From Leucoraja erinacea (Eukaryota), in the NCBI RefSeq assembly GCF_028641065.1, contig NC_073391.1, positions 5,146,001-5,210,000 on the forward strand: a stretch of 64,000 nucleotides of DNA. The letters are read 5' to 3'. Below the pieces are notes generated by a model that was not told where the DNA came from, made no database searches, and saw only the letters and a program-made list of their open reading frames with translations. Below are positions 11,301 to 62,110 of this stretch, piece by piece (the stretch's first letter is position 1; each line of letters starts with the position of its first letter). Both the position numbers and the translations under genes were made by a program.

Positions 11301-14300
11301 ACATAGGTTCATGGTGAAGAGGAAAAGAATTAATGGGAATCCGAGGGGTAACCTTTTCATCACAAAGGGTGGTGGGTGTATGGAACAAGCTGCCAGAGGA
11401 GGTAGTTGACGCTGGGACTATCAGAAACAGTTAGACAGGTACATGGATAGGACAGGTTTGGAGTGATATGGACCAAGCGCTGGCAAGTGGGACAAGTGTA
11501 GCTGAGACATTGTGTGGGCAAGTTGGGCCGAAGGGCCTGTTTCCACACTCTTATCACTCTATGACTCTATATAAAATGCTGGCTAATTCCTCTCCGTTAA
11601 TAACATAGAGAGTAACTCCTCCAATTCATTGTGCAGATAATGTGCAGGGAGAAACTGCAGATGCTGTTTTAAACCAAAGATAGACACAAAATGCTGGAGT
11701 AACAGTGGGATAGGGAGTATCTCTGGATAGAAGGAATGGGTGATGTTTTGGGTTGAGACCCTTCTTCAGACTGAGAGATGGTCTATCTTCTCTCTATCAT
11801 TGTGCAGATACATTATTTGTGTTCTTTACATGCAAAGATTCAGAAAGATTGTCCAGAAACAGATGTTAAAAAGTAAAAGTTGAACACTAAATGAATTTAA
11901 TAACATCCATTACATTTCTGAGGTCTTTCCTACGGGCTATCTCCAGGATAAAACTCATGTCACCCAGTTTCTGTTAAAAATTTGTTTGTTAATATTGTTT
12001 GTGTCAAAATCCCCAACAGCCTCAAATATTGTCCCATGTATGACTGAGGATGTTGTCATCATGCACTGTATTTGGTCTGGGCTTGGGCTCTCTGGACACT
12101 GGAACTCTGGCAGTAACAAGACCAGTAGATCCAGCATAGATCTAACTAAAGTCAAGCTTTGGTTTCTGATATAGAGTCGAAACAGGCCCTTCGGCCCACC
12201 AAGTCCACGCTCACCATTGGTCACCCATACACTAACCATATAACCATATAACAATTACAGCACGGAAACAGGCCATCTCGGCCCTACAAGTCCGTGCCGA
12301 ACAAATTTTTTTTCACCTTAGTCCCACCTGCCTGCACTCATACCATAACCCTCCATTCCCATCTCATCCATATGCCTATCCAATTTATTTTTAAATGATA
12401 CCAATGAACCTGCCTCCACCACTTCCACTGGAAGCTCATTCCACACCGCCACCACTCTCTGAGTAAAGAAGTTCCCCCTCATATTACCCCTAAACTTCTG
12501 TCCCTTAATTCTGAAGTCAGGTCCTCTTGTTTGAATCTTCCCTATTCTCAAAGGGAAAAGCTTATCTACACTAGTTCTGTGTTATCTCACTTCTGCAACT
12601 TACACTGTGTTATCTCACTTCTGCAACTTACAACTGGAGTGACGAGAGCAAATCCACACGCTCACAGGGAGGACGTACAAACTCCACACAGACAGCACCC
12701 GAGGTCAGGATCGATCCTGGGTCTCAGCCACTGTGAGGCAGCAACTCTACTGCTGCGCGATTATGCCATAAAGGATCTGGGGGGATTGCCAGATTCCTGC
12801 TCGGAAACCTGAAGAAAATTGATTTGTTGTGGATGAATGGATCACCTTGTAAATTGCTTATTTGTGTCTAATCAAAAACAAAGTTAAAAGATAAATTCAT
12901 CAAACTCTGTAACGTCTCTCACATTCGCTTTTAATTGTGATGTACCTGAACATTGGTGGTGAAGGCTCCTAAGGACAAAAGAACAAATACCAGGTTACAT
13001 CAGATTTTGGAAAGTGATTGGAGAATTACTGCATTGTACACTCATGTTACAAAACACACCTTTAGTTACAATCAATGTGTGAACCAATATAATGATCAAG
13101 GAGAAAAGCACCATGCTGCAGGCACTTAAAATCTGAAATAATACAGTAAATTCAGGATATACTCTGTATATCCGGCAACATATGTTGGAGACAGAATCAG
13201 AACTAATGCTTCAGGCCAATAAATAAACTCCTGGAAGAATTCAGAGGGTCAAGCAGCAGCTGATTAGTACTAGTGTCAGGGGTGACAGGGAAAAGGCAGG
13301 AGAATGGGGTTAGGAGGGAGAGATAGATCAGCCATGATTGAATAGCAGAGTAGGCTTGATGGGCCGAATGGCCTAATTCTGCTCCTATCACTTATGACCT
13401 TAATGGACATAGTTTTAGACGAAGACCATGTATCAGGACCGAGAGTGTAAGGAAAGGAAGCCGGTATATGGAAATGAGGGGAGAGCTATTTATTTGCTAA
13501 CCCCATCTGATTTACATTATTCTTTTCAGGTGAAATAAGGTAAACCCTATCCTGAAATTTCAGAAGCTTTTTCTGATATATTATGGCCACATTTGTATAA
13601 ATTTGTATAAATACTTGTATAAATTTCACAAATCATTGAAATTAACATCAGAAACTTACCAATTCATCAGGAACTTCGTACACATCTGTGAGAGGAGGAC
13701 ATGTATTAATAAGATGAAAACACAGCTAATATGTTGAGAAGTTTCCCAAAATTGACACAAGGTTCATGTTTGTTTAACAGCAAATTGATTTGCATGTATG
13801 TGTCAAGCTCCCCAATTCAAATATAGAAACAGGGAACTGCAGATGCTGGTCTAAAAAAGACACAAAGTGCTGGAGTAGGTCAGCGGGTCAGCCGGCATCT
13901 CAGGAAAGTGTGGATAGGCAGCATTTTGGGTTGGGACCCTTCTTCAGACCTGAAATGATCTATTTCCATGTTCTACTGAGATACTGCCTGACCCTCTGAA
14001 CTACTCAAGCATTCCGTGTCTTTCCCAATTCAAATTTGGGCGGCACGGTGGCACAGCGGTAGAGTTGGTGCCTTACAGCGCTTGCAGCGCCAGAGACCCG
14101 AGTTCAATCCTGACGACGGATGCTGTCTGTACGGAGTTTGTACGTTCTCCCCGTGACCTGCGTGGGTTTTCTCTGAGATTTTCGTTTTCCTCCCACACTC
14201 CAAAGACGTACAGGTTTGTTGGTTAATTGGCTTGGTACAAATGTACATTGACCCTAGTGTGTGTAGGGTAGTGTTAATGTGGGGGATTTCTGGCCAGTGC

Positions 14301-17300
14301 GGATTCGATGGGCCGAAAGGCCTGTTCCCGTGTTGTATATCTAAATTAAACTAAACTCAATTCCAGTTTGTAGCAACTCACACTGATTAAGCTAAAGAAT
14401 ATACTTTTTTTTAGAAAAAATAGATGCTCTTTGAATTGTGAATTTTAAATTGCATATTGTTTTCTTTGTAAGTTTTTGAGAATAAATATTCTCAAATATT
14501 CGGCGCGGAACCGGTGGGCCGAAGGGCCTGTTTCCGCGCTGTATCTCAAACTAAAACTAAAAACTAAATTGATATTGATGAGAATTCCGGGCCTATTGCC
14601 CTTGTTTTGAATGAATGTGGTGCAGTGCTGTGGACCAATACATCCGAGATTGAGGGGGATCCATACTGCTGCAAACTAAGGTTGACAAAAGTGCTGGAGA
14701 AACTCAGCGGGTGCGGCAGCATCTATGGAGCGAAGGAAATAAGTAACGTTTCGGGCCGAAACCCTTTTTCAGACTAATGCTGAGGGTGACCTTGGCTGTG
14801 GGCTCCCTGTATTGATGCTGCATTTTTATGTACAGCCACCAGAGGGCGGGACAGGATCTGTTGTTGCATTTGTATTTCCAGCTATCGAGGGACTGAATGT
14901 GAGTTCATCTGTTACCACAACCTGGGGCACGAGAAAGGTGGGATCAGCATCATTTAAATAGGCGGCAGGACCAAAGTGCAGAGAATGTGCTGAGATTCTG
15001 AAGAGAAATGTGAATTGCTGTCTTTGTATGTTTCTCGTCGATTGGTGGGACCGGGAGCCCGCCCGAAGTCTCGCTAACACCCGAAGATTCATCGGTCGAT
15101 GGGACCAGGAAACCGCCCGGAGGCTCGGCAGACGCCAAAACCGGGATGGAGCTGGAAAAATGGGACGCGTGGAGCAAGGACCGGTAGGAAGGCGATGCTT
15201 CCAGCCCCTTCCGCTCGGCTTCAGGAGGCGCCCCTGGGACACAAAGATGGCCGGGCGAGGAGAGGAGAGGATGTTGGTTCACGGGAACTGTTGCAGTACA
15301 TCGAGTGTGCGGGTCAACCGGTCTTTGCGCTTTGAATAATGGCGACAATAATGTCGGTGCCTGCATGTGTTATTTACGCAAAATGAATGTCACTGTACAG
15401 TTGCACATGTGACAAATTCTCTTTCTCCTCCCCAGCTAGCCTCTGCTGCGGGGTTCCACAAGGTTCCATCCTTGGCCCCATTCTCTTCTCCCTGTATATG
15501 CTCCCCTTAGCCAAGTCATTCAAAGGCACGGCATTTCCTTCCATCGCTATGCAGACGATACACAACTCTATCTCCCCCTGAAGCCCAACAACCGATCAAA
15601 TCTACTTAACCTTATCCACTGCCTCGAGGATATAAAGTGTTGGATGGCCCAGAACTTCCTCCAACTAAACGAGAGTAAGTCTGAGGTCATCCTTCTTGGC
15701 CCCTCGGACTCAATCAATACTATAGCAGGCAGTCTTGGAAGCCTTACCCCATTACTCAAATCTCACGTCAAAAAACTTGGCGTGATATTTGACTCAACGT
15801 TGAAATTTGCCGTGGTAAAAGCTAGCTTCTTCCAGCTTCGGATGATAGCTAAATTAAAACAATTCCTCCAGTTTGACGACCTCAAAAAGATCATCCATAC
15901 ATTTATCTCCTCCCGCCTCGACTACTGCAACTCCCTTTACACTGGCATCAGCCAATCTTCCCACCTGCAACTGGTCCAAAACGCCGCAGCGAGACTCCTG
16001 ACGGGCACTCGAAAAAGGGACCACATCACCCCGATCCTGGCCTCTCTTCACTGCCTCCCTGTGCGGTTCCGAATAAATTTCAAGATCCTTCTTTATGTTT
16101 ACAAAGCCCTTAACGGGCTTGCCCCGTCCTACATCAAAAATCTGCTTACCCACCACACCACCTCCAGGTCCCTCAGATCGGCCGACTTGGGGTTACTGAA
16201 CATCCCGCGGTCTAAGCATAAGCTCAGGGGCGACCGCGCCTTTGTGGTTGCAGCTCCTAGACTGGGGAACAGCATCCCTCTTCTCATCAGAACTGCCCCC
16301 TCCATCGACTCTTTTAAGTCGAGACTTAAAACTCATCTTTACTCTCAAGCCTTTCTTGACGTCCTCTGAGGGAGGGCTATATGTATGTATTTATGTATGT
16401 ACTTAATCTATGAACCACCGTTAGTAACGTTAGTACCTCCACCAATGTAAAACACTTTTGTCACCGAGAGTTGTTTTTTAAATGTGCTATAGAAATAAAA
16501 GTGACTTGACTTGACGAAATAAATTACTATTGAACTATTTTCCTTTCAACAGTTCCAATATTTGCTGAGTTCAAATTATCGTAAACCATAACCCTCACCA
16601 ATACTGAAAGAATGTTTTTATTCTAACATTGGCACAGTATTAATTTTGGATCAACTGACATTTCCAGGTGGCTTCAGTGAAGCAGTTACACAGAATACTA
16701 ATTAAATGAAAGGTAATAGAATATTCAGCAAAGATTATCTTCATAAGTCACCACCATTAGGAACCAAGGTGCATGGAATTAAGTGCTCATCTGTATCCAC
16801 ATCACTTCTCAGGCTTTGTCCCGACCCTAACAAAAGCTTTTCACTGTACCTTGGTTAGGGATGCCAACCATCTCACTCCCAAATAAGGGACAAAAGGTCA
16901 AAATACGTGACAAATTCACGACGGCAATTCGTTGACCGACTCGGCCGTGGCTGGGTGAATGATGAGTTGAGTGATGAATGATGAATGATGAGGCCGGGTG
17001 CCAGACTGCACACAATCCCCAACTGGCGGGCCAGCTGAGGAGTTTTGGCCTACACGACGTCGCGCACAAAGTCTGGCACCCCATCCAACTCATGAACCGA
17101 TGATCGGCCATGAGAAGTAGGGGTGGTTGTGTCGGCGGTAAGCGAAGGTCTGAAGGTCGGACAGCTGGCCGGGCTGCCGACCGACGGGGCCATGAGCGAG
17201 GCGCTGCTGCTGCACTCCATGGGCTGCACAACGTCGGGACGGGTGAGGTGGGGACCGGACGAGGCGCTCCGACCCGACAGTCCCCTCGACTCGAGTAGTA

Positions 17301-20300
17301 GCAGTCAAATACGGTACATGGGCAGTCCCATATGGGACAAACCAATTTAGCCCAATATACGGGATGTCCTGGCTAATACGGGACAGTTGGTAACCCTAAC
17401 CTTGGTACACGTGACAATAAACTAAACAAAACTAAACCCACTTCTCTTTTCCAACTTTCCTCCCCCAACTACAATCAGTCTGAAGAAGGGTCCTGACCCA
17501 GAATATCATCTGCCCTTTAACTTCTCAAATACTGCCTGACCAGTTGAGTTACTTCCGCAGTTTGTTTTCTGCACAAAATTCAAGCACCTGCCGTTTCTTT
17601 TGTCTGTAATTAAGAATAAGGGACAGGCCATTTAGGACAGAGATGAGGAAAAATGTTTTCACTCAGAGAGTTGTGAATCTGTGGAATACACTGCCACAGA
17701 AGGCAATGGAGGCCAATAATGTATTCAAGAGAGAGTTAGATATAGGGCTAGGGCTAATGGAATCAAGGGATATCGGGAGAAAGCGGGAATGGGGGTACTG
17801 ATTTTGAATGATCAGCCATGATCCTATCGAATGGTGGTGCTGGTTCAAAGGGCCGAATGGCCTTCTCATCCACGTATTTTCTATGTTTCTAAGTTATGGA
17901 AATAATTGTTGGCATGCCATGAAGCTCTCAATCATGAGGGATGTGATGGAAGGATTCATCAGTAGTGCTAGCAAACATGCTTACTCTCCAATAATCTGCT
18001 CATGGATGTCCAACTTGAGATTTGCCAGGATTACTTAGCTTCAGAAATTGTCACAACCTTGTTTCTTGCATGGATCAAAGAACTACATTTCAGAGGCGAG
18101 GTGGGAATGTCTGCCTTGACATCAATGCAATGCTTGATAGAATGAAGATAGACACAGAAAAACAGAGTTACTCAGTGGGTCAGACAGCATCTCTGGAGAA
18201 AAGGAATAGGAGATGTTTCGGGTCTGAAGGATCTTGACCCGAAACATCACCTATTCTTTTTCTCCAGCGATGCTGTCTGACCCATTGAGTTAATCCGGCA
18301 TTTTGTGTCTATCTTCAGTTTAAACCAGCATCTGCAGTTCCTTTCTACACTCTTGACAGAATGAAGCATCCTTTGTTCCTGGTAAAAACTGACATCAATT
18401 TGGCATCAAGGGGTAAATTGTCCAAGATTGGATTCACACCTTGCACAAAGGAGGAGAGCTGCAGTTTTTTTGACACCATTCGCCTCTACCTTGATATCAT
18501 GGCAGAGGGATTCCTTTGGACTGTGTACTAGGCCCAACCATCTTCAGATGCTGCAGCAATGACATTTGTTTGAACATAAGGTCAGAAGTGGGCTTGTTTG
18601 TTGATCCTTGCACAATATGAGGCTTTATGTTTAGTCGAAGCCTGGGATATGCTGCCAGGGGAGGTGGTAGGAGCAGATAAGTGTGACATTTAAGAGGTTT
18701 TTAGATAGACACAATAGACAATAGGTGCAGGTGTAGGCCATTCGGCCTTTCGAGCCAGCACCACCATTCAATATGATCATGGCTGATCATCCACAATCAG
18801 GGAATAAGCAGGGAATAGAGGGACGTGGACCATCTGCAGGTAGATGGGATTGGTTTTGATTAGCCCACCATTTCTGCCCTAACCATAATGCCAAAAGGCC
18901 TGTTCCTGCACTGAACCATTTCATGTTCCATATATTGAAGAGTTAATTATTTCTACATTTCTTACCTTGAAACTGTGGGCTTTCTGACCGTGACTGTGCC
19001 TCAGATGCAGCATGGTCTGGATAAAATAAGGAGGACATATGACCTAAACGTGCATGATTCATGAATGCAGAATTACATATTTTCCAATAACAGTTTACCA
19101 ATAGGCTGATGACCAGGTTACTAGATGACTCCAGATTACAACAGATTACCAGTGCGGCATGGTGGTGCAGCAGTAGAGATGCTGCCTTATGCCCCTGTCC
19201 CACTTAGGAAACCTGAACGGAAACCTCTGGAGACTTTGTGCCCCACCCAAAGTTTCCATGCGGTTCCCGGAGGTTTTTGTCAGTCTCCCTACCTGCTTCC
19301 ACTACCTGCAACCTCCGGCAACCACCTGCAACCTCCGCGAACCGCACGGAAACATTGGGTGGGGCGCAAAGTCTCCAGAGGTTTCCGTTCAGGTTTCCTG
19401 AGTGGAACAGGGGCATTACAGTGCAAGAGACCTGGGTTCGATCCTGACTACGGGTGCCGTCTGTATGGAGTTTGTACATTCTCCTCGTCACCGTATAGGG
19501 GATTCTCCGAGATCTTCCATTTCCTCCCACACTCCAAAGATGTTCAGGTTTGAAGGTTAATTGGCTTGGCATAAATGTAAATTGTCCCTAGTGTATGTAG
19601 GGTGGTGTTAATGTATGTGGATCGCAGGTTGGGGCGAACTTGGTGGACCGAAGTGCCTGTTTCCGCGTTGTATCTCTAAATTAAATTCTCTCAATATATT
19701 CATATTTTCTATACTTAAGCAGAATCTATAATGCTTTTCATTCAATTTTAATTTACACCAATCATAAAGAAAAGTCCTCATGAACCAGTATAATACGCCC
19801 ATGATGTATATTTAAACATTCTTTAAATTGCACATTTATAAATAAAACTGGCATTACAATGTTGCAGAATTTTAGTTAACTGAATCCTACTTTGCAGTTA
19901 TTGTTATTTATAATAGGAACAAAGCAATAACCATTCAATTATACATCTGGATTTTTTGTCAGAACCATAATCGTTCTTCGATCTCCCACCCTCTAACTTC
20001 AACTGGCCTGTCTAATGTTGATGATCTGAGAGGGAGGGAAAATGATGGAGGGGATTGTTGCCTCTCTGTTCTTACCCTGCCTTGTGTCTTTCCTATTGTC
20101 TATACTTGGGAATGCATAACAATGCATTTGCTTGTATATGGGATGGTAAGATAAAATGCAAGAGGAATAGCAGCAGGAGTGAAGCATTTGGCTGTCTGAC
20201 CATACATGCAGATCATAGCCGTTCATTTACCTATGGTCTACTTTCCTGCTTGTTCTACATAATCCAAGAGACGACAAATTTTGTTCTTCAATATTCCCAA

Positions 20301-23300
20301 TAACATACATCCAAAATTCCCTGGGGTAGCAAATTCCCGTGATGAGGAAGTCCTTTATTGTTCTGGTCTTCACCCTTTACATTGAGGCCATGTCTGGATT
20401 CTCACATTCGAGGGAACATCATCAAAGAACCCATTACATCAAACTCCCATAGGTTTTTGTCCATTTCAATAAGTTCACTTCCCAATCTAAATTTCAGATC
20501 ATATAAGGCCCAATCCCCTCAACTTTTCCCAATAAGGTCACTTCAACGCAGCGTTATTCATATAAGTTGTTTCGGTAACAACTCCAAGGAGTATATACTT
20601 CCTTAAATAAGGAGCTCAAATCTGTAAGCAGTGCTCCAAGTGTGGTCTGGATAGTTAAACTCAATTCCACTGGTCTTCCTGATTATCTGCTGTATGATTT
20701 GCTAACTTTTTGAACTGAGGGAAATTTTGAGGAATATGATCTCCAAAACTTTATTCCATTGCTTCATCGTGGCTAAATGAATAATATTTTGGGCCAAGCT
20801 GTTCCACAAAGTGTAATGTACGTTGGAATATATACTTTTGAAGTTATTGCCATTAACGTCAGAATGATGGATTGCATAGACTTAAAGGATTCGTGCAAGT
20901 TTAAGCAAAATGATGGCTTTCTTCCAGGTAGCACAAAGCACAAACTTGCAGTCCACTTTCCACACTTGCCAGAACAAAGGTTTGTTTGCATGTTAGTGGA
21001 AATCCCCAGCAGAAATATATGATACTCCTCGTGAAGGAAGGAACTGCAGATGTTGGTTTAAACTGAAGATAGACACAAAAAGCTGGAGTAACTCAGTGGG
21101 TCAGACAGCATTTCTGGATAGAAGGAATAGGTGACATTTCAGGTCGAGACCTCAGATAACCTTCAGACTGAAGAAGGGTCTCGATCCGAAACGTCACCTA
21201 TTCTTTTTTTCCAGAAATGTTGTCTGACCCGCTGAGTTACTCCAGCTTTTATTGTCTTATCTATTGCGATTCTCCTTTTCAGTTTTTAAAAGATCCCAAG
21301 GATACAACAGTGCATGACTTGCACTACAATTACAAGCTGTTGAATTTTGAACAGCATCTTATAATTTGCATTGAAGGCATTTGAGTACCTGAATCGTGGA
21401 AGTGCCCTGCTTTGGGACTGGATGATGAACCTGTCGGTTTGTTGGGTGGCTTGCCTGCTCTGTTCACTAGAGGAGCTGAAGGAATATGAATAATTTAATG
21501 AAGAGGTAGATAGACACATTTGAAAATCATTTTATGATTAAGATTCAAAAAAATTAAAACGTAGCACAATCATGCCGAACACAAGTAGTCTTTGCAATGT
21601 TCACCTCTAATAGAAAGCCACAGCCCGCTGCGTACACAGGCAACTTGAGAGTGAATGTGAAAGGAACGCACCAGAATTTGTTTACAGTTCTCACATTCAC
21701 GGTTCTCATGAACATTCTCAATATCTTCTTTGAAGTTAGTTTAACATATAAATAGCCCTCTACTTGCTGCCTCTTTTCATTGGATTTTTATTTTAAGGTA
21801 ATTCTTCTGAAATCTCAGTCTGCAAAATCTTTAATACGCACTTTTTTAAATCATGCTGAAAAATTGTCCCACCTATGGCCCAAGTCTGAAGAAGGGTCCT
21901 GACCCAGTTGAGCTTATAGGACTTGATATTACAATCCCTATTATAATTGGCACCTTCTTACTATCTTGAGTGGGGTTAGGGGTAAAGACTTAATTGGGGT
22001 CATCAGGTGGGCACCCTCCTTCCATGGTGTTTTGTTGATAGGCCCACGACACCTCCAGAGGGTTCAACAGCAACACCTGGCATCCCAGGTGCGCTCCCCT
22101 CCGTTTTACCCCTCTTGCTGGTCATGTTGCAGCCCGGTTGGAGTCCTTCCTCTTCAGCCACAGCCAGGTGCTGCTTGGCTCGGCAGCCTCTGACAGCGAC
22201 CTGATGGCTTGCCGGAAGGCCTGCCCTCGAACTCCCATTCCCTTCAGGAGTCTGGTTGTTGTCATGGCTACAAACCCTCTGCAACCAACCTCTACAGGGA
22301 GCACCTGGGTACGCCAGCCACATTGTTCTGCCTCGGCTGCTAAGTCTGAATACCTCAGACATTTGCGTTCATACGCTTCACCAACTGCAGCCTCTCAAGG
22401 CACAGTTAACTCCACGATGTACAGGGACATCTGTGAGGTTGACCACAAGATCAGGTCGGGCCTGAGATTAGTTGTGATGATCTCTGGTGGAAAGATGAGC
22501 TTCTGGTCTAGATCAGCCTGCATTTTCCAGTCCCGGGCAGTGTCCAGGAGGGTCGGTTCCTTTCTTGCAAATGGCTTCTCTGGAAGCTGTCCTGCCTTTA
22601 CAAAAGGGATGGTGATCGAGAAACCAGGCGTTGAGGGAGGGAGGGAATTGGTGGTAGTTCTCCTTCTTTCCAAGGTAATCGCCAGTTGTAGCAGGACCTG
22701 ATTGTGCCTCCAGGTGTAGTGGCCTTGTGAAAGACGGGATTTATGATGTGCCTAATGTTGCTGGGGTTTGGCAGACAGAACATGATGGATCTTCTCCAAG
22801 TCACTGGTTTAGGTTCTTGGGTGTGGGAAGAACATCGTAGGTGGCTCTGATGATGAAGCTAAGATGGCTTCCTTCCATTTCCCACAGATCCTTCCAGGTA
22901 AGCTTACGATGCTCCAGGTTTTCCCAGGTAGTCCACTGGCCCTGTTTGGACTGTGAGGCTGAATTTGCGCATCTTTCTGCCTCCTCTTGCTAACGGACCT
23001 CAGCAACTACCAGCTTTCTTCTCTGGGTGGATGTTGCCTTGTGCCATGTGGGTCGACTTGTCCCGAGTCCAATCCCACCTCTTCCCTGCTGCACCTGTCC
23101 TACAATGTCTCCATGTCTGAGAGCAAATTTTAACCATTAGGGGTGACTCCTATTCACAATTATTACCTGCCCATTAACTTCCCAAATACACATAATGGAC
23201 AGATAATGAGGTGGGCGTTGTAAGACTCTTGCAAATATATTCAGGGATCTCGCACCAATATCATTGCATTGTGTGTGGGGAGCGTGTTACAAGGTGCGGT

Positions 23301-26300
23301 GGTAAAGATGATTGAGGGGGGAGGATTGATCGGGAGCTGATGGAAGTGGGATCTGTGAGTGTTGAGGAGAGGGCGAGAAGATTGTTAGATTTTGAAGCTC
23401 GGATAGCGTGACATTTTGAAATCTAACTAATTATCTAATAGCTGCCCAAGAAAGGCCACAGATTCAATCGTTAAAGTTCCAGTTGGTCTTAACCATTAAG
23501 TTAAACGGCTGCATTCAAGGCTTGCACCTGGTGAGGTCTTGTATGTACACTATCATTTCTTGGAGTCAAACAGGAATGAAACAGAATCTTGGGCCCCACC
23601 TCGTCCTTGCCAACCAAGATGCCCCATCTAAGCTTGTCCCATTGGTCTCCATTTGGCTTCCGTCTAAACCTTTCCTATCCATTTATCTGTCCAAATGTTT
23701 TTTAAATGCTGTTGTGGTACCTGCCTCTGTCAGTTCATTCCACATACCCACCATCCTCTGTGTGAATATGTTGCCCGTCAGATTCCTATTACATATTTCC
23801 CCCCTCATCTTGATGCCTTCTAGTTCTTCCGATTCCCTTACCCTGGAAAAAACACTCTGTACAGTCTCTATTTATTCCATTCTTAATTTTATACATCTCT
23901 ATAAGACTGCTCCACAGCCTCCTGCGCTTCGAAGAATAAAGTCCTAGCCTGCCCAACCGCCCTTATAGCTCAGGCCCCTCGAGTCCTAGCAATATCCTTG
24001 CAAATCTTCTCTGTACTCTTTCCATCTTCGTAGCTTCTTTCCAAGAGTAGGGTGACCAAACTGGAATACAATACTCCGTGCATCCTCACCAATGTTGTAT
24101 ACAACTGCAACATAAAGTCCCAACTTCAATATTCAACTACCTGACTGATGAAGATCATTGTGGCAAAAAGTCTTCTTGGAAAAACTTTTCCACCAGTGAC
24201 AACACTTTCAGGGAACTATGTTCTTGCATTAATGGATCTCTCTATTCTTCAATGGTTCCCAACCCCTTACTGTTCACTGTAGCGGTCCTGCTCGGGTTCG
24301 AATTCCCAAAATGCAATACCTCACACTTAGCTGAATTAAACGCCATTAGCCATTCCTTGGTCCATTGGCCCAGCTGATCAAGATCTTGGTTAACATGAAG
24401 TTAAATTGAATGATATTTGCTGTGTAACATCATCGTGTATGACCTTGGACTTGTATGCATGTGCCATGTGTAGGAAGACAATTATCAAAAATCCATTCCT
24501 TTGCTCTTGATAATTGCATTTGATGATTTCTTTAAAAATATAAGATTGCGCAGTAAACATGCACTTTGCCCTGTTCAACAGAAATCCTAGGCCAATCTGT
24601 TTTAATTCATCCACATCTGTGGGCAATGTAAGGAAATCATAGAATGAATGTGATGCCTGAATGTATAGGTCTGTAAAATACAGTGAGTTAGTCTGCTATC
24701 TGTAATAATCTTTATCCAAAAAGTTTTAAAAGTTTCTTCTTACTTCATTGTCCTCACCACATTGTTCTAATATCTCTGGACGCTTCTGAATTAGGATCCT
24801 ATCATTGACCCTGTCCTCAATATCCAACTTAAATAGATTGCTCACTTTAGATCTTCTCCGATTTTCAAACCTGATCACGTCTTCATTCACTCACATGCAT
24901 GCTAATTACAGAGCTGAGCATAATTGTTTCAAAAGTGATTTCATTTTAACAATTATATCCTGTCAGGTTGGAAGCCCAGAGGAAAAATATCAAATTGGCT
25001 TCAAGAAGATTAAAAAAATCAATTAGTCTGATTTGTATTAACCATTCTAGCTCTCCCTGTCCACCATTGCTAAAAGGATAGAAAGATGACATTCACCCAG
25101 ATTCCATCATAGGAGTTTTTTGTTGTTGTTTCTATGATCATGTCTAGGCTGAATCTCCCTGACAGGTGCAGCGGTAGAGTTGCTGCATTACAGCACTCAT
25201 TCGCTGGAGACCTGGGTTCGATCCCGACTACGGGTGCTGTCTGTACGGAGTTTGTACGTTCTCCCTGTGACCGCGTGGGTTTTCTCCAAGATCTTTGGTT
25301 TCTTCCCACACTCCAAAGGCACATAGGTTTGTAGGTTAATTAGCTTGGTATAATTCTAAATTGTTCCTAGTGTGCATAGAGTAGTGTTAATGTGTGGGGA
25401 TCGCTGGTCGGTGCGGACTCGGTGGACTGAAGGGCCTGTTTACCCTCTTAATTGGCTTGATATGATTGTAAATTGTCCCTAGTGTACGGGGATGGATGGT
25501 CGGCGTGGACTTGGTGGGACAAAGGACCTGTTTCCACGTTGTATCTCTAAACTAGACAGCAGCTGTAAACAGATGTACGTGCTTTGAGAAATCATATTTC
25601 CCAAACTGCCACAATGCATTTAATAACCACGTCAATGCTATTGAAATTCTTTGATGCAATTTTCTTTGATTGCATTTATTATGATGTTGATCTGATTCGG
25701 TTTCTGGTACATAGTGAGTGCTTCAGCAAATTACCCCTTGGACCAGTCATTTACATGAAGATAAATTCTTGTCATCTTGAGTTTGCACGTTGTTCCCCCT
25801 CCATGTAGTGCAGCTGTTTCCACACACATCCCAAGTGCTGTTTGGTGCGTTACTTTAGTGACCTGCCAATGTCATTGGTTAGTAAGGAGTCAAGGAGGCA
25901 TTGATGGGCATGGAAGGGCGAACAGATGCCAGGGATATAAGGCTGACGGGATTGTTGTGAGTTGGCATGGACTAGTTTTATGTTTGAACTATGAGATGCA
26001 AGAACTTACGTTTCAACATTGGTCGCGGGACACTTTGCTCTGTGGGGTCGATGTATGTATCATCGGGTTCACTATCCTTCATGGGGACAATGTAATCACC
26101 CTGCAAATAAATACAGTTTCCCAATAAAACAAAACGCACCAAAATAAAACAAACAACAGTCGTTTACAATCAGCTCACTTCATTCACCAAATACATTTGC
26201 AGGATATGCATGTGATTTTGTATGCTTTTACTACTTTGTGCCATTCTCTAGAGAAATCATTTGTTATAAGAATGGCTATTTTTAATGTTCAGATCTAAAT

Positions 26301-29300
26301 CATTTATAAGCCATAGTCATAGAGTGGTAATGCGTGGGGAAAGGCCCTTCGGCCCAACTTGCCCACACCAGTGAAAATCAAAGTTGCACCGTGCAGATGC
26401 AATCAGGATACAAACAGAATAAGAAAAGATATTATTCTGAAGAAGGGTCTCAACCCGAAATGCCACCCATCTTCTCTCCAGAGATGCTGCTTGACCCGTT
26501 GAGTTACTCCAGCATTTGTGTCTACCTTCGATTTTACCAGTATCTGCAGTTCTTTCTTACTATACTAAGAAATATATAAATGCTTATCCAGAGTGGCATT
26601 TGAATGAAGTCAAATTTGCATTTTTGGCAAGTGAACTGTCTTGGACAATTAGACACAGTAGCAGATTAAACGCTAGCATTCAAAGAGGAATTGGATAAGT
26701 ATCTAAGAGGAAAGAATATGCTGGGCCAGAGGGACTAGCGGGATTGTCCTTACAAGGAGTTGGAAAGGACTCAATGGGCCAAACGGCCACGATCAAAAAT
26801 GCAACTGCTCTGTGATCTGTGTACATTGCTGAGGCTAGTCACCATTCAGAGCCGTCTGTGCCTTACTAGAGGCCCGTCAGCTGTGGAGATTCAACACATT
26901 CAATCCTACACATGCTGAGAAATTAAATGCAGACAGATGATCTGTCCAAACATTTTGGTAGCTTTAAGAATCTAAACGTAACAAGCTGTTGATTCATCTA
27001 TGATATTAATTTACAGTTTTTCTCCCCACAGACACTACCTAATGTGTTGGAATTGTCTTTTTAGTTTCAGGTTTGATAACCAGCATGTCGGTCTCTAAAT
27101 GTCCCCATTAACCCATTGCCCCTGAATCACCACATCAACTCTAACCTTATTGTATCAAAGAGATTCCCTTAATCCCTCCCCAACCCTTTCTGCAATGTAA
27201 AAATAACTACATTTTCCCCCACCTTGTTGGTCCTGATGAAGGGCCTTTGACCTGGAATGTTCACTTTGTTTTGCTTTCCGCAGATGCTGCCTGAGCTACT
27301 GAGTGATTCCAGCATATCTTGTTTTCATTTCAGTTTCTGAGCACCTCATAGAGTCATACAGCATGGAAACAGGCCCTTCAGCCCAACTTGCCCAGGCTGA
27401 CCAAGGTGCCCCATCTACACTATTGCCACCTGCCAGCATTTGGCCCATCCCTCTAAAACATTCCTAACCATGTACCTGTCCAAATGTCTTTTAAATGTTG
27501 TTATAGTACCTGGCCCATTCCCTCTGTGTGAAAAAGTTACCCAGCAGGCAATATTAAATCTTTCCCATCACAACTTAAGCCTAAGGTACACAAAAAAGCT
27601 GGAGAAACTCAGCGGGTGCAGCAGCATCTATGGAGCGAAGGAAATAGGCAACGTTTCGGCTCGAAACATTGCCTATTTCCTTCGCTCCATAGATGCTGCT
27701 GCACCCGCTGAGTTTCTCCAGCTTTTTTGTGTACCTTTGATTCTCCAGCATCTGCAGTTCCTTCTTAAACACAACTTAAGCCTATATCTCCTGGTTCTTG
27801 ATTCCTCTAGTCTGGGTAAAAGACTCTGTGAATTCATTCTATCTATTCCTCTCATGATTTCATACAACTCCATAAGGTCAGCCTCCTGCAATCCAAGGAA
27901 TAAAGTCCTAGCCTGCCCAACTTCTCCCTGCAGCTCAGGCCCTCGTGTTTGTGGCAACATCCTTGCGAATCTTCTCGGTACTCCTTTGCATTGTTGTTTA
28001 ATGTGCTTGGTGCAGGGAAACATGACTAGAATTCCTCCTTTGCAAATCACCAAGCACAGGCCCTTTGATCTCCACTGATACTCCTGACTCTCACTCGCCT
28101 TCTCCTTCTGGAGAAGCCAAGCACTATTGAGGCCACCACCTGTTGAAAAAGTCCAACCCTCTTTCTGTGATGTTGACCTTACCTCATCATCTTCCTTCCA
28201 TCCCCGGGGCTGTGGTGGCGTCTTCCGCTTATTTGGAACCGGAGACGGCTTTGAGCCAGGGACCACAGGCCGGCTTGCTGCTTGATTGTCTATGGGAATA
28301 ATGTGGAGGATTAACTTTAGATTCGGGCAGAGTTACCAACCCAGCACTGATATCTTGCATCGCTTTCAGGGCAAGGCCAGCAGCATAATCAAGGACAAGT
28401 CACACCCTGGCCACTCTTCTCCCCTCTCCCATCAGGCAAAAGGTGTAGAAGTGTGAAAACGCACACCTCCAGATTCAGGGACAGTTTCCTCCCAGCTGTT
28501 ATCAGGCAACTGAATCATCCTACCACAACCAGAGAGCGGTCCTGAACTACTATCTACCTCATTTGTGACCCTCGGACTATCATTGATCGGACTTTGCTGG
28601 CATTACACTGCACTAAACATTATTCACCTTATCATGTATATATACACACTATAAATGACTGGATAGCACACAACAAAAGCTTTTCACTGTACCTCGGTAC
28701 TGCCACTGAACAGGGGGGAACTTATAGATTTCATAATATTTCAGATGTTAGAAATGACTGAAGGGATTCCGTATTTGGGTCAGTTCAGAGATAGGCCCTT
28801 CAGCCGACCGGGTACATGACAACCATTATTGATCCATTCACACTAGTTTAGTTTAGTTTAGTTTGGAGATACAGCGCGGAAACAGGCCCTTCAGCCCACC
28901 AAATCCAGACTGACCAGTGATCCCCGCACACTAACACTATCCTACACACACTAGGGACAATTTACACTTATACCAAGCCAATTATCCTACAAACCTGTAC
29001 GTCTTTGGAGTGTGGGAGGAAACTGAAAATCTCGGAGAAAACCCATGCGGTCCGTACAGACAGCACCCGTGGTCGGGATCGAACCCGGGTCTCCGGCGCT
29101 GCAAGTGCTGTAAGGCAGCAACTCTACCACTGCGCCACATTCCAAGTTATTCCACTTTTGTATCAATTCCCCTTACACCAGGGGCAATTACAGAGGTTAA
29201 TTAACCTACGAACATGGAAATCTTTCAGATGTGAGGGGAAACCGGAGTACCCGGAGAAAACCCACGCGGTCACAGGGAGAATGTGCAACTCCACACAGAC

Positions 29301-41300: not shown

Positions 41301-44300
41301 TAATTAGTGACATTCCAGTCAAATAGTTTTAAACACTTACAAATTCATTGTCAGACCACCGTTCATCACCAGGTCCTTCAGCTCCTTCTAATTAATAGAA
41401 TAAGAAAATATATTTTCAGTAACCAAAATAATGATGTTATTCCATATTTTGGAATGACATCAAGCAAAACAAATCATTAGTAGGGTGGAAGGGCTGCAAT
41501 TTAGATTCTGGAGAACCAAGTTTACTTTTGACAGACACAAAATGCTGGAGTAACTCAGCGGGACAGGCAGCATCCCTGGATAGAGGAATGGGTGACGTTT
41601 CAGGTCAAGACCCTTCTTCAGACTGAGAGAATCTGGACCCGAAACTTCACACTTTCCTTCTTTCCGGAGATGCTGCCTGTTCTGCTGAGTTACCCCAACA
41701 TTCTGTGTTCTACCTTCTGTGTAAACCAGCATCAGCAGTTCCTTCCTTTACAAGTTTAATCAATTGTTTGCTGATAGCCCATTGAGAAATGGAAAACCTC
41801 TGGTCAAAAATTTACATTTTTAAGCAACAATTATAAACAAAGCCAATGGTAGAGTGAGCCTTTCACAATAATAAGTATGATCTGATTTAACTGATAATCC
41901 ATGTTGTTTCCTGGAAGTTCCAACATGGCTAGAATGCGGTGAAGGGTCCATACATGTATTACAAGCAAGGAACATAGCATCTGGGAATTTTTGTACAATC
42001 CACTGGAGGACTCCGTGGGTCGGGCAGCGACTGTGAAGGGAATACATTGTTACGTCTTGGATTGAAAGTAAAGGTTTCAAAGGTCTTTTATTGTCACGTG
42101 TAACCAATTAAGGCACAGCGATATGCAAATTACCACCACTAGGACACCTTTGATACAGTTTCAACCCAAAATGTTAACAATTGCATTCTCCCCACAGATG
42201 CTGCCTGACTTGCTGAGTTCCTCCGGCAGATTGCCTGTTGATCCAGATTCCAATATCTGCAGGATTTTACGTCTTCAAGATTAGTTTTTATATGCATATA
42301 GGGACTAGACTTCTTCCATTTTATAATAATGCAGCTTTAAATCTTACACTTATCTCCTATAAGTTTCTAACAAAACCTAGCATGTTTAGAAAATACAAGT
42401 TTAAGCTGCAGTTGCACCGTGGACTTGTAGGTGGTTTGAAATGAAAAACCTGATTTAACGTTGAGCTTTGTTCACAAACACTCATCAAAATGTTATATCC
42501 ATTGTAAATCTGTGGTAATTCTTTCCAAAGTGATTGAAGGCAGGGGAATTGGTTGTTATGTTATGCATGTGTGCGTTCGTCAGGACCTGCCAAGCATCAG
42601 TTGCAATGAAAATCACTTACATTTTAATGTGTTTCACTCAAAAATAAATAGGGCTTTGTATGTTCAATCATGATATCATTTTTCAAAATTCATAAATCTT
42701 AATCATATCATTCCCTGCTGTGAAAGCTGTGATAAATATTCATGCTGTTGTTCTTGCTATGATCAAGGACTTCACTCCTGAAAGTTTTTGAATTAACTAA
42801 GCAAAATTAAATGATCGTCAAATTTGTCTTACTGTTCTGCATGTTTCCTCTCAGAGTCGGGTAAAAGAACACAAATCCTATTCACTTTTAAAAGTTTAAA
42901 TTCGGACGCAGCCCAGAACACCACATAAACCAACCTCCCTTCTATTGACTTCATTGAAACCTCACGCTGCCTCGGCAAGGCCAGCAGCATAATCAAGGAC
43001 GAGTCGCACCCTGGCCACTCCTTCTTCTCCCCTCTCCCATCAGGCAAAAGGTATAGAAGTGTGAAAATGCACACCTCCCAATTCAGGGACAGTTTCTTCC
43101 CAGCTGTTATCAGGCAACTGAATCATCCTACCACAAGTAGAGAGTGGCCCTGAACTACTGTCTACCTCTTTGATAACCCTCAGACTGTCCTTGATCGGAC
43201 TTTGCTGGCTTTACCTTGCAGTAACGTTATTCCTCATGCACCTGTACATTGTAAATGGATTGATTGTAACCATGTATTGTCTTTCTGCTGACTGGTTAGC
43301 ACACAACAAAAGCTTTTCACTGTACCTCGGCACACGTGACAATAAACTAAACTAAAACAGAAACTGAAACCGATCAAAATTTTTGTAGACAACTTTACCT
43401 GTGTAATCTCTGTGAGGAACAGTAGGTGGTGCTTGTTTAGTGATTCTGCAGCAATTAAGAGAAAAATAGATTAAATAATCATCAAGCCATAAGCTTCAGG
43501 CAATGTGCAGGGAATGGCAGGGAATGTTACATTTCAAATTGTTAGTATTTTCAGTACAACATGCACTAGGCCTTATTCAGCTGTAAAAGCAATTGCAAGT
43601 TAGTCAATGCATTCTAGAAGCATGACAGTATTTGGATCACTGTCAGAGGTCATGTGAGTGAAGTTAGCTCTTTGAATAGCACCTGGTGAGTAAACAAAAT
43701 GAGCCATTGATGTTACACACATATGCTTACAAATTTCTGACCTGACCTTCAAGAGGATGTGATGGAGGTTCTAACGCCAGTTATAGGACGGCGAACCTTT
43801 CCCAAATGATTTGTTGGTTCACCTTGAGGACCATTACTGTCACTACAGGGAAGATTCAGCGATTACATGAACATTCCCCTGCAGTTCATCTGTTTTCTAT
43901 CAACACAGTATCAGCTGATACTGAAGCCAGGAGCCAGGTTATATAAATGGTGGAAAAGGGATACTGAGATATTAATAGCTCCCATTTGTCACTTGGAACC
44001 TAAACTACCAAAACCTCACCTTCACTTTTAAAATGAATTTAGTCAGTTCATTTTAGGAATGGGTTCAAATAGGCCGAGCATGCTAGGAAAGTGGTCCAAC
44101 ATTGCATTAAGATTGGCGTCACATCATGGGATCCTGCTTTTCCAGCAGAGTAATTTGGGAGGAGGCATATAGGTCACCTTATTGAATGTCCTGGTACATC
44201 AGAACAGCAGATGTTGCAAAGCACCAAAGCAAGTGTGGTGATGAATACTGATGTCGGAACATGAGGCCATTAATTTGTTGTGAAATACATCTTCAATTAA

Positions 44301-59229: not shown

Positions 59230-62110
59230 TGGCATCTGCAAATGGAATACAGAGTAGCAGAGAGTACAGCCATGCACTTTGGTAGAAGGAGTAAAGGCGT
59301 GTCGAGACCACTTTCTAAAAGGAGAAAGGATTCAGAAATTGGAGGTGCAAAGGGACTTTGGAGTGCTGTGCAGGATTCTCAAAAGGTTAATTTGCAGGTT
59401 GAGTTAGTGGTAGGAAAAGCAAATGCAATGCTGGCATTCATTTTGAGGGAACTAGAATATAAAAACAAGGATCTAAAGCTGAGGCTTTATCAGGCGCTGG
59501 TGAGATCACATTTGGAATATTGCGAGTCCCGTATTTGAGGAAGGCTGTCCAAAGGGTCCAGAGAAGCTTTATGAGAATAATGCCGGGGATGATTAGGTTA
59601 ATAGACTAAAATGCTGGAGAAACTCAGCAGGTGAGGCAGCATATATGGAGCGAAGGAAATGGGCAACGTTTTGGGTCGAAACCCTTCTTCAGACTGATGT
59701 GAGGGTGGGTGTGGGAAGAAGAAAGGAAGATGTGGAGGGAGGTGCCGTGGTAGTCTGGCCCGCTGAACGTCAACTCTCAGACACCTCCTCCTACTAATCC
59801 TTGGACCATGACCCCACATACGCGCACCAGACGATTATCTCTAGCACCATCAGTGATTTCATCCACTCCGGCTCCCTGCCCTCCCAAGCCTCCAACCTCA
59901 TCGTTCCCCTATTTTACCTTCTCCCCAAAATCCACAAACCTCACTGTCCTGGCAGACCCATTGTCTCTGCCCGTTCGTGTCCTACCGAAGTTATTTTCAC
60001 ATACCTCGACTCCATCCTATCCCCCTGGTTAAATCCCTCCCTACCTATGTTCAAGACAACTCACACGCTCTTCATCTACTCCAGGACTTCCGTTTTCTAG
60101 GCCCCCATTCCCTCATCTTCACCATGGATGTCCATCACTCTACACCTCCATCCCCCACTAGGAGGGTCTCAAAGCCCTCCATTTCTTCCTCGACCGAAGA
60201 ACCAACCAATCCCTGTCTACTACTACTCTCCTCCACCTAGTGGAGCTGGTCCTTACCCTTAATAACTTTTTGTTTGACTCCTCCCATTTCCTCCAAATAC
60301 AAGGCGTAGCTATGGGCACACGTATGGGCCTTGGCTATGCCTGCCTCTTTGTAGGGTACATCGAACAATCCTTGTTCGAGGCGTACCGTGGCCCTATCCC
60401 CGAACTCTACTTCCGCTACATCGACGACTGCATTGGTGCCACCTCCTGCACCCACACACAACTCACTGACTTCATCCATTTCACCACTAATTTCTATCCA
60501 TCGCTCAAATACACCTGGACCATTTCCGACACTTCCCGACCACTTCTTGGCCTCACTATCTCCATCGCAGGTGATAGACTCCTGACCGACATCCACTATA
60601 AACCCACTGACTCCCATGGCTACCTGGACTATACATCTTCCCACCCTGCTTCCTGTAAGGACCCCATCCCCTACTCCCAATTCCTCCGTCTATACCGCAT
60701 CTGCACCCAGGATGAGGTGTTCACACCAGGGCATTAGAGATGTCCTCAATCTTCAGGGAACGGGGGTTCCCCTCTTCTTCTACAGATGAGGCTCTCACCA
60801 GGGTCTCTTCTATACCCCGTGACTCTGCTCTCTCTCCCCATCCCCTCACTCGTAACAAGGGCAGAGTCCCCCTTGTCCTCACCGTCCACCCTACCAGCCG
60901 TAACATACAACAAATAAACCTCCGCCATTTTCGCCACCTCCAATGTGATCCCACCACCTGCCACATCTTCCCATCTCCTCCCCTGTCTGATTTCCGCAGA
61001 GACCCCTCCCTCCATAACTTCCTGATAATTTTTGTCCCTTCGTACCGTACTACCCTCTCTCCGGGGCACTTTCCCTTGCAACCGCTAAAAATGCTACACT
61101 TGTCACTTTACCTCCCCCCTTGACTCCATTCAAGGACCCAAGCAGTCTTTCCAGGTGCGACAGAGGTTCACCTGCATCTCCACCAACCTCATCTATTGCA
61201 TCCGCTGCTCTAGATGTCAGCTGCTCTACATCGGTGAGACCAAGCCTAGGCTTGGCGATCGTTTCGCCGAACACTTTCGCTCAGTTCGCAATAACCAACC
61301 TGATCTCAGCACTTCAACTCCCCCTCCCATTCCGAATCCGACCTTTCTATCCTGGGCCTCCTCCATGGCCAGAGTAAGGACCACCGTAAATTGGAGGAGC
61401 AGAACCTCATATTTCGCTTGGGCAGTTTGCACCCCAGCAGTATGAACATTGACTTCTCCAATTTCAGGTAGTCCCTACTTTCTCCTACCCTTCTCAGCTC
61501 TCCCTCAGCCCACTGGCTCCACCTCTTCCTTTCTTCTTCCCGCCCCCCCACTCTCACATCAGTCTGAAGAAGGGTCTCGACTCGAAACGTCGCCTATTTC
61601 CTTCGCTCCATAGATGCTGCCTCACCCGCTGAGTTTCTCCAGCATTTTTGTCTACCTTCGATTTTCCAGCATCTGCAGTTCCTTCTTAAAGGTTAATGTG
61701 TGGGGAGTGTTTGAATGCTCTGGGCCTGAAATTGCTGAAGTTTAGAAGAATGAGGGGAAATGTCATATAAGATCTGGGTAATGAAAGGCCTAGATAGAAT
61801 GTACGTGGAATGGATGTTTCGATTCAACGGCACAGCCTCAGAATAAAAGGAAGTACCTTCAAAATGGAGATGAGCAGGAATTTCTTTAGGGTGGTGAACT
61901 TGTGGAATTCATTGCCACAGATGGCTGTGGAGGTGAAGACATTGGGTTTTTTTAAGGCAGAGATGGATAGATTCTTTATTAGGATGGGTGTTAAAGGTTA
62001 CAGCGAGAAGGCGGGAGAATGGGCTTGAAAGAAAAAAATTGATCAGCCATGATTAAATGGCAGAGTAGAATTGATGGGCTGAACGGCCTAATTCTCATAT
62101 TTCTTATGGT
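59230..62110 (+). mobile_element. CR1 fragment (59230-59602 and 61690-62110) split by Penelope
   Basis: KANAMLAFI.R.LEYK, LVRSHLEYC; RVVNLWNSLP. Confidence 0.85.
59603..61689 (+). mobile_element. 5'-truncated Penelope-like retroelement (RT plus GIY-YIG) with inverted terminal repeat
   Basis: FYLLPKIHK...PGRPIVS, QIQGVAMGT.MG, YFRYIDD, YKPTDSH.YL, IPYSQFLRL, NLIYCIRC..C.LLYIGET..RL..RF.EH; the 5' ~140 bp is an inverted copy of the 3' end; TSD aggttaat at 59595-59602 and 61690-61697. Confidence 0.95.

What the first reader, a model, noticed from the sequence alone, without database searches (positions are those of the whole stretch)
27569..27784. Family of ~150-220 bp Penelope-derived foldback mini-elements that move on their own with 12-15 bp TSDs
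Seen: more than 20 non-coding units made only of the 3' terminal repeat of the Penelope element at 59603-61689, often as head-to-head inverted arms. At least four have long direct flanks: 15 bp (27569/27770), 14 bp (11626/11797), 12 bp (13811/14024) and 15 bp with one mismatch (18133/18352). They sit inside CR1, Tc1 and other LINEs. Established: Penelope-like elements often carry an inverted 5' copy of their terminus. Inference: this is a SINE-like non-autonomous Penelope class, or a set of extremely truncated insertions, that seeds long hairpins throughout introns.
Basis: partly seen in the sequence, partly recalled or inferred. Interest (0 to 1): 0.7.

Follow-up and report, generated by a model that had tools for sequence, protein, structure and literature searches.

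The report
Folded-back Penelope end stubs
These short mirror-image insertions are real, separately inserted end pieces of a Penelope-type jumping gene, present in thousands of copies, but they are likely dead-end by-products in which two short copies of the parent RNA's front end get joined back to back at built-in palindromes, not a mini-element that spreads on its own.

Summary
The 27569 unit is real: a 76-bp inverted arm, a matching arm, a 33-bp tail and a perfect 15-bp TSD. Thirteen paralogous empty sites of the host repeat hold one copy of the TSD region. Its junction recurs at least 3,636 times in the genome, but it lies in a palindrome intrinsic to the parent's hammerhead motif. Among 100 position-ordered young insertions, 15 have this junction, 28 other foldback junctions, 31 are un-inverted stubs and 26 run on upstream. 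All four classes share the common haplotypes. Arms of one copy mirror each other's variants, and both centre bases occur on several haplotypes. One arm carries the tail and the other does not, matching two reverse-transcription start sites described in vitro. Best reading: by-products of an autonomous Neptune-type Penelope-like element, primed on both target strands and joined at palindromes (inferred). Self-copying is not supported. Short pLTR dimers remain possible sources. The scan noted the same class on other DNA several times. A cap-G signal and orthologous empty sites were inconclusive; no host gene was found.

The parts
27569..27583 (+). left TSD, 15 bp
   Evidence: 13 paralogous empty sites of the host repeat hold this region once
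27583..27658 (-). inverted, tail-less pLTR arm; outer end at inner start site (site 2)
27659..27661 (.). 3-nt centre of the junction, inside the palindrome of hammerhead stem II; the 5' half of the ribozyme core is absent from this copy
27662..27737 (+). sense pLTR arm
27738..27770 (+). 33-bp tail ending at outer start site (site 1)
27770..27784 (+). right TSD, 15 bp
11626..11810 (-). older single-arm stub with tail, 14-bp TSD
13811..14035 (-). older foldback, different junction, 12-bp TSD
18133..18366 (+). older foldback, different junction, 15-bp TSD with one mismatch
21031..21262 (-). older foldback, junction with filler; no TSD found
41530..41747 (+). older foldback; no TSD found
59601..59737 (-). 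[quoted passage not shown]
59740..61500 (+). 5'-truncated, frame-broken RT, Cys linker and GIY-YIG region of a Neptune-type element
   Evidence: RT and GIY-YIG hits in related copies
61501..61690 (+). 3' pLTR with pyrimidine tract, minimal hammerhead motif (about 61558-61597) and tail; an 8-bp direct flank lies at 59595-59602 and 61690-61697
   Evidence: motif read by eye against PMC4209133, no Rfam hammerhead hit

Best explanation
The unit is a TSD-flanked end piece of a Neptune-type Penelope-like element, likely made afresh at each insertion when the parent's enzyme cuts both target strands, primes one short cDNA on each, and the two cDNAs are joined head to head at a palindrome of the hammerhead motif. 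Shown: staggered duplication of about 14-15 bp; one arm ends at site 1 (with tail), the other at site 2, 33 bp inside; in full elements the same repeat precedes the ORF, so both sites lie only about 95 and 128 bases from the spot where un-inverted stubs and several full copies begin. Inferred: priming in this 5' repeat runs out after 95-135 bases; one cDNA gives a solo stub, two give a foldback, a jump to the far end gives a long copy. The two cDNAs have the same polarity, so they can pair only at self-complementary spots, which would make those spots junction hot spots; elsewhere they are end-joined with filler. Stubs end at site 1 and lack the downstream RNA that a related enzyme needs, so they are likely dead ends.
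For: Class mix among 100 position-ordered young ends: 15 palindromic, 28 other foldback, 31 solo, 26 long by an automated rule (two are segmental duplicates and a few are borderline). Among 30 loci picked only by an identical 99-bp arm: 5, 10, 10, 5 by hand (one is the query). Common haplotypes are shared across classes (73 copies, chi-square p=0.14). In 76 full-arm palindromic copies 66 variants are mirrored in both arms; none of 86 left-only variants recurs more than 4 times. Centre base C 917, G 520 genome-wide, both on at least 5 haplotypes, with no age difference (22 vs 21 copies, p=0.94). A second hot spot at the next palindrome has 1,065 copies with both centre bases. Tail on exactly one arm in 15 of 15 palindromic loci not selected for it. 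Site 2 is used alone: 26 of 43 un-inverted stubs end there. The tail-less arm reaches further upstream than the tail arm in 11 of 29 scorable foldbacks, about 8 cleanly, which one self-copying cDNA cannot give. 29 of 31 solos begin within one 8-base stretch, as do 5 copies that run on into the ORF's start. PMC11167929: two RT start sites bracket the tail, both strands are cut and extended, and ORF sequence past the start sites is required.
Against: The centre base can change after insertion: a segmental duplicate pair differs only there among the junction bases (L247, L248), so the C/G mix and some mirrored variants could come from later arm-to-arm exchange. A foldback master that was itself twin-primed on its sense arm would give the same symmetric offspring. 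The need for downstream RNA is borrowed from a Poseidon element in vitro, not this Neptune-type element. None of 30 sampled read-through copies continues more than about 270 bases into the ORF, so the autonomous source of the youngest lineage was not found. No RNA start was seen at the stop point, and an extra-G signal vanishes once foldbacks are removed. The haplotype test has low power, and one common haplotype had 0 of 15 palindromic copies in that sample though it has them elsewhere.
Confidence: 0.65

Rival explanations
1. Snap-back self-priming: one cDNA folds back at the palindrome and copies itself, and the endonuclease trims one end to leave the tail (after Arkhipova et al. 2013).
For: Junction hot spots are palindromes; 13 mirrored singleton variants fit one arm being copied from the other; PMC3846280 proposes it for palindromic junctions. 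It could account for the palindromic class, including 27569.
Against: About 8 clean cases in which the tail-less arm holds sequence missing from the tail arm, and junctions with filler; site 2 is used without any inversion; a G centre needs a later change.
Confidence: 0.13
2. Short direct dimers (repeat, tail, about 75 bases of ORF start, repeat) are non-autonomous source elements that the parent's enzyme copies in trans; stubs and foldbacks are their offspring.
For: 23 of 30 sampled read-through copies are such dimers and none is full length; they keep the downstream sequence; post-tail length clusters at 71-83 bases in 10 of them; two dimers share rare variants between their units. Non-autonomous PLE derivatives are known (PMC8557442; bioRxiv 2026.07.22.740005).
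Against: Dimer junctions differ from copy to copy, so no dimer family has amplified; haplotypes are shared with ORF-linked copies; RNA depth past the tail is 2-70 against about 10,000 on the repeat.
Confidence: 0.12
3. A SINE-like foldback master is transcribed and copied end to end.
For: At least 3,636 copies with one junction; 30 top hits are 95-100% identical over the whole unit, 29 of 30 with a TSD (selected by the query).
Against: Only about 15% of young insertions; the junction is a palindrome of the parent; it occurs on many haplotypes with both centres; no inherited arm asymmetry; a -146 kcal/mol hairpin would be a poor template (inference).
Confidence: 0.06
4. Longer inverted insertions collapsed later by deletion at the hairpin centre.
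For: Centres can change after insertion; long perfect palindromes are unstable (recalled).
Against: Copies whose right arm is unmutated already have the junction (4 of 29); non-palindromic junctions with filler are as common.
Confidence: 0.04

Closest known systems
EN+ Penelope-like insertions with inverted pLTR, optional 30-40 bp tail and TSD (Pen2a_Av in PMC3846280; figure 2 legend of PMC8557442)
   Same: Head-to-head inverted repeat shorter by the tail, tail on one end only, palindromes at inverted junctions, TSD, solo pLTRs.
   Different: Here the ORF is usually absent: about three quarters of young insertions are 110-330 bp. TSDs are mostly 13-16 bp against 8-10 bp in the rotifer. Junction hot spots reach thousands of copies.
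PAc (Poseidon, Anolis) internal initiation, PMC11167929
   Same: Two start sites bracketing the tail; both strands cut and extended; hammerhead upstream of the start sites.
   Different: Different clade; the parts read do not describe inverted products. Here the sites lie upstream of the first in-frame Met read by eye.
Dispersed minimal hammerheads of metazoan PLEs, PMC4209133
   Same: Minimal type I motif with palindromic helix III; mostly single copies; pairs on opposite strands 100-700 bp apart noted in Schistosoma.
   Different: The 27569 copy has lost the 5' half of the core; stubs start upstream of the core, not at the cut site (1 of 10 solos at the cut site).
Non-LTR retrozymes and non-autonomous Chlamys (MRC1)
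   Same: Non-coding, pLTR-related, need the parent's enzyme.
   Different: Those are head-to-tail units with their own families; here foldbacks are head-to-head and dimers have no fixed junction.
L1 twin priming (recalled; term seen only in search listing)
   Same: Second target strand primes a second cDNA; inversion joined by microhomology.
   Different: In L1 the second primer anneals at variable internal places; here it would use a fixed second site 33 bases in, so the arms overlap and form a hairpin.

Membership tests
EN+ Penelope-like element (parent) | RT followed by C-terminal GIY-YIG endonuclease | tested here: met
   GIY-YIG 6.8e-5 above cut-off in L238; RVT_1 3e-4 below cut-off in L240; window pieces alone gave no Pfam hit
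EN+ Penelope-like element (parent) | Partial tandems forming pLTRs, tail, inverted 5' copy | tested here: met
   Endonuclease end, pLTR, then ORF start in L238-L240 and L246; inverted pLTR at 59601
Neptune clade | Zn-finger-like Cys motif between RT and endonuclease | tested here: met
   Cys-x4-Cys-x2-Cys read in window and L196; PMC8557442 gives it for Neptune and Nematis
Neptune clade | RT phylogeny separating Neptune from Nematis | not tested
   No reference set at hand; 'Neptune-type' rests on the motif and on recall
SINE-like non-autonomous family | Fixed structure inherited from a master, with its own diagnostic variants | tested here: not met
SINE-like non-autonomous family | Own transcript from an internal promoter | tested here: inconclusive
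   RNA is abundant but 87-96% of laid reads run on into unlike sequence; no pile of starts
Non-LTR retrozyme | Head-to-tail units each with a complete type I hammerhead | tested here: not met
   27569 is head-to-head with half a core; only some dimers fit
Non-LTR retrozyme | Self-cleavage and circular RNA | not testable with these tools
   Stub starts do not map to the cut site
MITE or foldback DNA transposon | Inverted repeats reaching both termini, short fixed TSD | tested here: not met
   Tail on one side only; TSD mostly 12-19 bp and variable

The most novel reading that the evidence does not exclude
Most insertions of this family come not from the coding element but from short non-autonomous pLTR-75 bases-pLTR dimers, a TRIM-like or retrozyme-like Penelope derivative, and every insertion is twin-primed at two fixed sites, so the thousands of hairpins are a genomic record of the unknown second-strand step of Penelope transposition.
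Probability: 0.12. Interest if true: 0.65.

Novelty: new member of a known kind. Interest (0 to 1): 0.33.

Why it matters
How Penelope-like elements make their inverted ends is an open question (PMC8557442 names it). This family links the two in vitro start sites to the two arms of the inversion and offers thousands of junctions with which to tell twin priming from self-priming. It also warns annotators that a recurrent junction at a palindrome can mimic a MITE or SINE family. The structure itself is already described, and the scan has met it repeatedly.

Tried and rejected
Rfam scan: no hammerhead hit; six sub-threshold microRNA-like or hairpin hits, not meaningful. Orthologous empty sites: contigs of four related organisms laid on 26300-28300 were swamped by repeat copies; no listed piece bridges the site; one 109-base contig covers the left junction by only 28 bases, too few to count. 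No RNA holder was listed for the 27569 region. Paralogous empty-site test found nothing for 11626, 13811 and 18133 because at least one flank has no match in the fetched loci. RNA on a tandem junction (three runs, 1-5% of each read): no start or end pile-ups, no splice joint among those listed; A>G and T>C differences cannot be told from copy differences. Cap-G test: G 1,536 against C or T 2,333 before the common start (ratio 0.66, about 0.45 expected), but 13 of 30 G loci and 4 of 30 C/T loci are foldbacks, which removes the excess; among TSD-resolved stubs 8 of 11 G loci and 5 of 15 C/T loci have filler, suggestive only. The pooled tally was dropped because duplicate handling mixed selected and unselected loci. 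No intact young autonomous copy was found. Host-gene search gave nothing. Four literature searches listed no paper on this stub family in cartilaginous fishes; Repbase and Dfam could not be searched, and no supplements were read.

Full report
Observation. The window is G000:C15:5146001-5210000. At 27569-27784 a 15-bp duplication flanks a 76-bp inverted arm, a 3-base centre, a matching arm and a 33-bp tail. The flanks belong to a host repeat, and 13 fetched loci hold them contiguous with one copy of the duplicated region, so this is a true insertion. The other three TSDs check out, and 47093/47259 adds one more. The window has 28 terminus clusters, of which 6 short ones are head-to-head, each with its own junction. 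In a genomic sample, 48 of 74 short insertions have a TSD against 3 of 216 controls; lengths centre on 14-15 bp.

The parent. The element at 59601-61690 is 5'-truncated, with a tail-less inverted repeat at its 5' end, broken RT and GIY-YIG frames and a Cys linker of Neptune/Nematis type (domain hits in related copies). Tandem copies show the full order: endonuclease end, pyrimidine tract, minimal hammerhead motif, site 2, tail, site 1, ORF start. So the '3' terminal repeat' is also the front of the next unit, and both sites lie about 95 and 128 bases from the start of the hammerhead motif. The hammerhead was read by eye against PMC4209133 (parts 1-2 of 4 read); Rfam gave no hit.

Is it a family with one breakpoint? 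A search with the whole unit returns 40 places at 94-100% identity; the 30 fetched share the junction and 29 have a TSD, but the query selects for that. The exact junction occurs 3,636 times among at least 17,101 young tail-bearing ends (the anchors differ, so the ratio is rough). Two samples not selected for junction tell more. Of 30 loci with an identical right arm, 5 have the junction (one is the query), 10 have other foldback junctions, 10 are un-inverted and 5 run into the ORF (sorted by hand). Of the first 100 young ends on contig C1, the counts are 15, 28, 31 and 26 (automated; two duplicates and a few borderline calls). The junction lies in a near-perfect palindrome that ORF-linked copies already carry in hammerhead stem II. 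A second palindrome at the start of the motif gives a second hot spot of 1,065 copies.

Descent or fresh formation? In 76 full-arm palindromic copies (84 after two duplicates were dropped, 8 more skipped for short or odd left arms), 66 variants are mirrored in both arms, 53 of them at four lineage sites and 13 as singletons; arm-only variants (86 left, 82 right) recur at most 4 and 6 times. Arms within a copy differ less (2.5) than arms between copies (3.8-4.0). The centre reads C in 917 and G in 520 oriented copies, both on at least five haplotypes, and the common haplotypes also occur in solo and long copies (p=0.14). Against this, one segmental duplicate pair differs at the centre, so later exchange between arms happens; C and G copies show no age difference.

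Mechanism. One arm ends at site 1 and the other at site 2 in 15 of 15 unselected palindromic loci; at the second hot spot 11 of 15 had one tail and 4 had none detected. Site 2 is also used alone (26 of 43 un-inverted stubs). PMC11167929 (parts 1-2 of 4 read) shows for a Poseidon element two start sites bracketing the tail, cutting and extension on both strands, a need for ORF sequence past the sites, and no need for ribozyme cleavage. I infer that each target strand primes a cDNA in the front repeat. Of 31 solos, 29 begin within one 8-base stretch (this sample required an intact stem II 3' half), and five copies that run on into the ORF's start begin there too. Whether this point is a transcription start, a splice acceptor (PMC4209133 notes one at this place in Drosophila virilis) or a stall is unresolved: the extra-G test was inconclusive and RNA showed no starts. 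Two cDNAs of one polarity can pair only at palindromes, which would explain the hot spots. Snap-back priming, proposed in PMC3846280 (passages and Discussion read), explains palindromic junctions too, but not the 11 of 29 scorable foldbacks (36 examined, 7 skipped; about 8 clean) in which the tail-less arm reaches further than the tail arm.

Possible non-autonomous sources. Only 164 places match an exact read-through past site 1. Of 30 examined, 23 are short direct dimers, 3 are partial, 4 stop within about 30 bases and none continues far into the ORF (sorted by hand). Their junctions vary, so they too look freshly formed, but they keep the downstream sequence and could serve as templates. Non-autonomous PLE derivatives are in print (PMC8557442, passages; bioRxiv 2026.07.22.740005, part 1 of 5 and passages). 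PMC8969392 (passages) treats inverted pLTRs and tails as routine features.

Consequences. The unit folds at -146.3 kcal/mol (z -23.7). The repeat is common in RNA as a passenger (87-96% of reads run on into other sequence) while the ORF start is nearly uncovered. No host gene, small RNA or editing was shown.

Earlier notes. Eight notes from other genomes describe the same class; none exists near this window. They agree with the by-product reading, which I had reached before looking. The cap-G claim of one was tested and not confirmed here.

Verdict. Real insertions, known architecture, likely dead-end by-products; the added value is genomic evidence for two-site twin priming and palindrome-guided joining. 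Interest 0.33.

Noticed in passing
L264-L293 (for example L266, L271, L278): Short direct pLTR dimers with 45-270 bases of ORF start between the units, clustering at 71-83 bases; L292 looks like a 149-bp three-unit array.
   Followed up: partly
L247 and L248 (C1:160973288 and C1:161049356): Segmental duplicate copies of one palindromic insertion differ at the centre base (C versus G), a possible flip of the spacer between inverted arms.
   Followed up: partly
L238-L240, unplaced contigs C1235, C742, C465: Tandem Penelope-like copies in near-identical surroundings; in L238 an integrase frame of an LTR retroelement lies upstream.
   Followed up: no
window 61501-61563: Long pyrimidine tract followed by CAG just before the hammerhead core, resembling a splice acceptor; a donor-like site follows the tail by about 35 bases in tandem copies.
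   Followed up: partly
L374, L378, L381, L392, L393 and window 18143-18352: A further recurrent junction joining the stem II palindrome of one arm to the common start of the other (5 of 30 loci).
   Followed up: no
window 57089-58010: Broken hAT-type transposase; C-terminal dimerisation domain hit at 57654-58010.
   Followed up: no
window 9804-10670 and 15440-16366: Two LINE RT fragments.
   Followed up: no
L045: The one stub that begins at the predicted hammerhead cut site, with a short duplicated filler.
   Followed up: no
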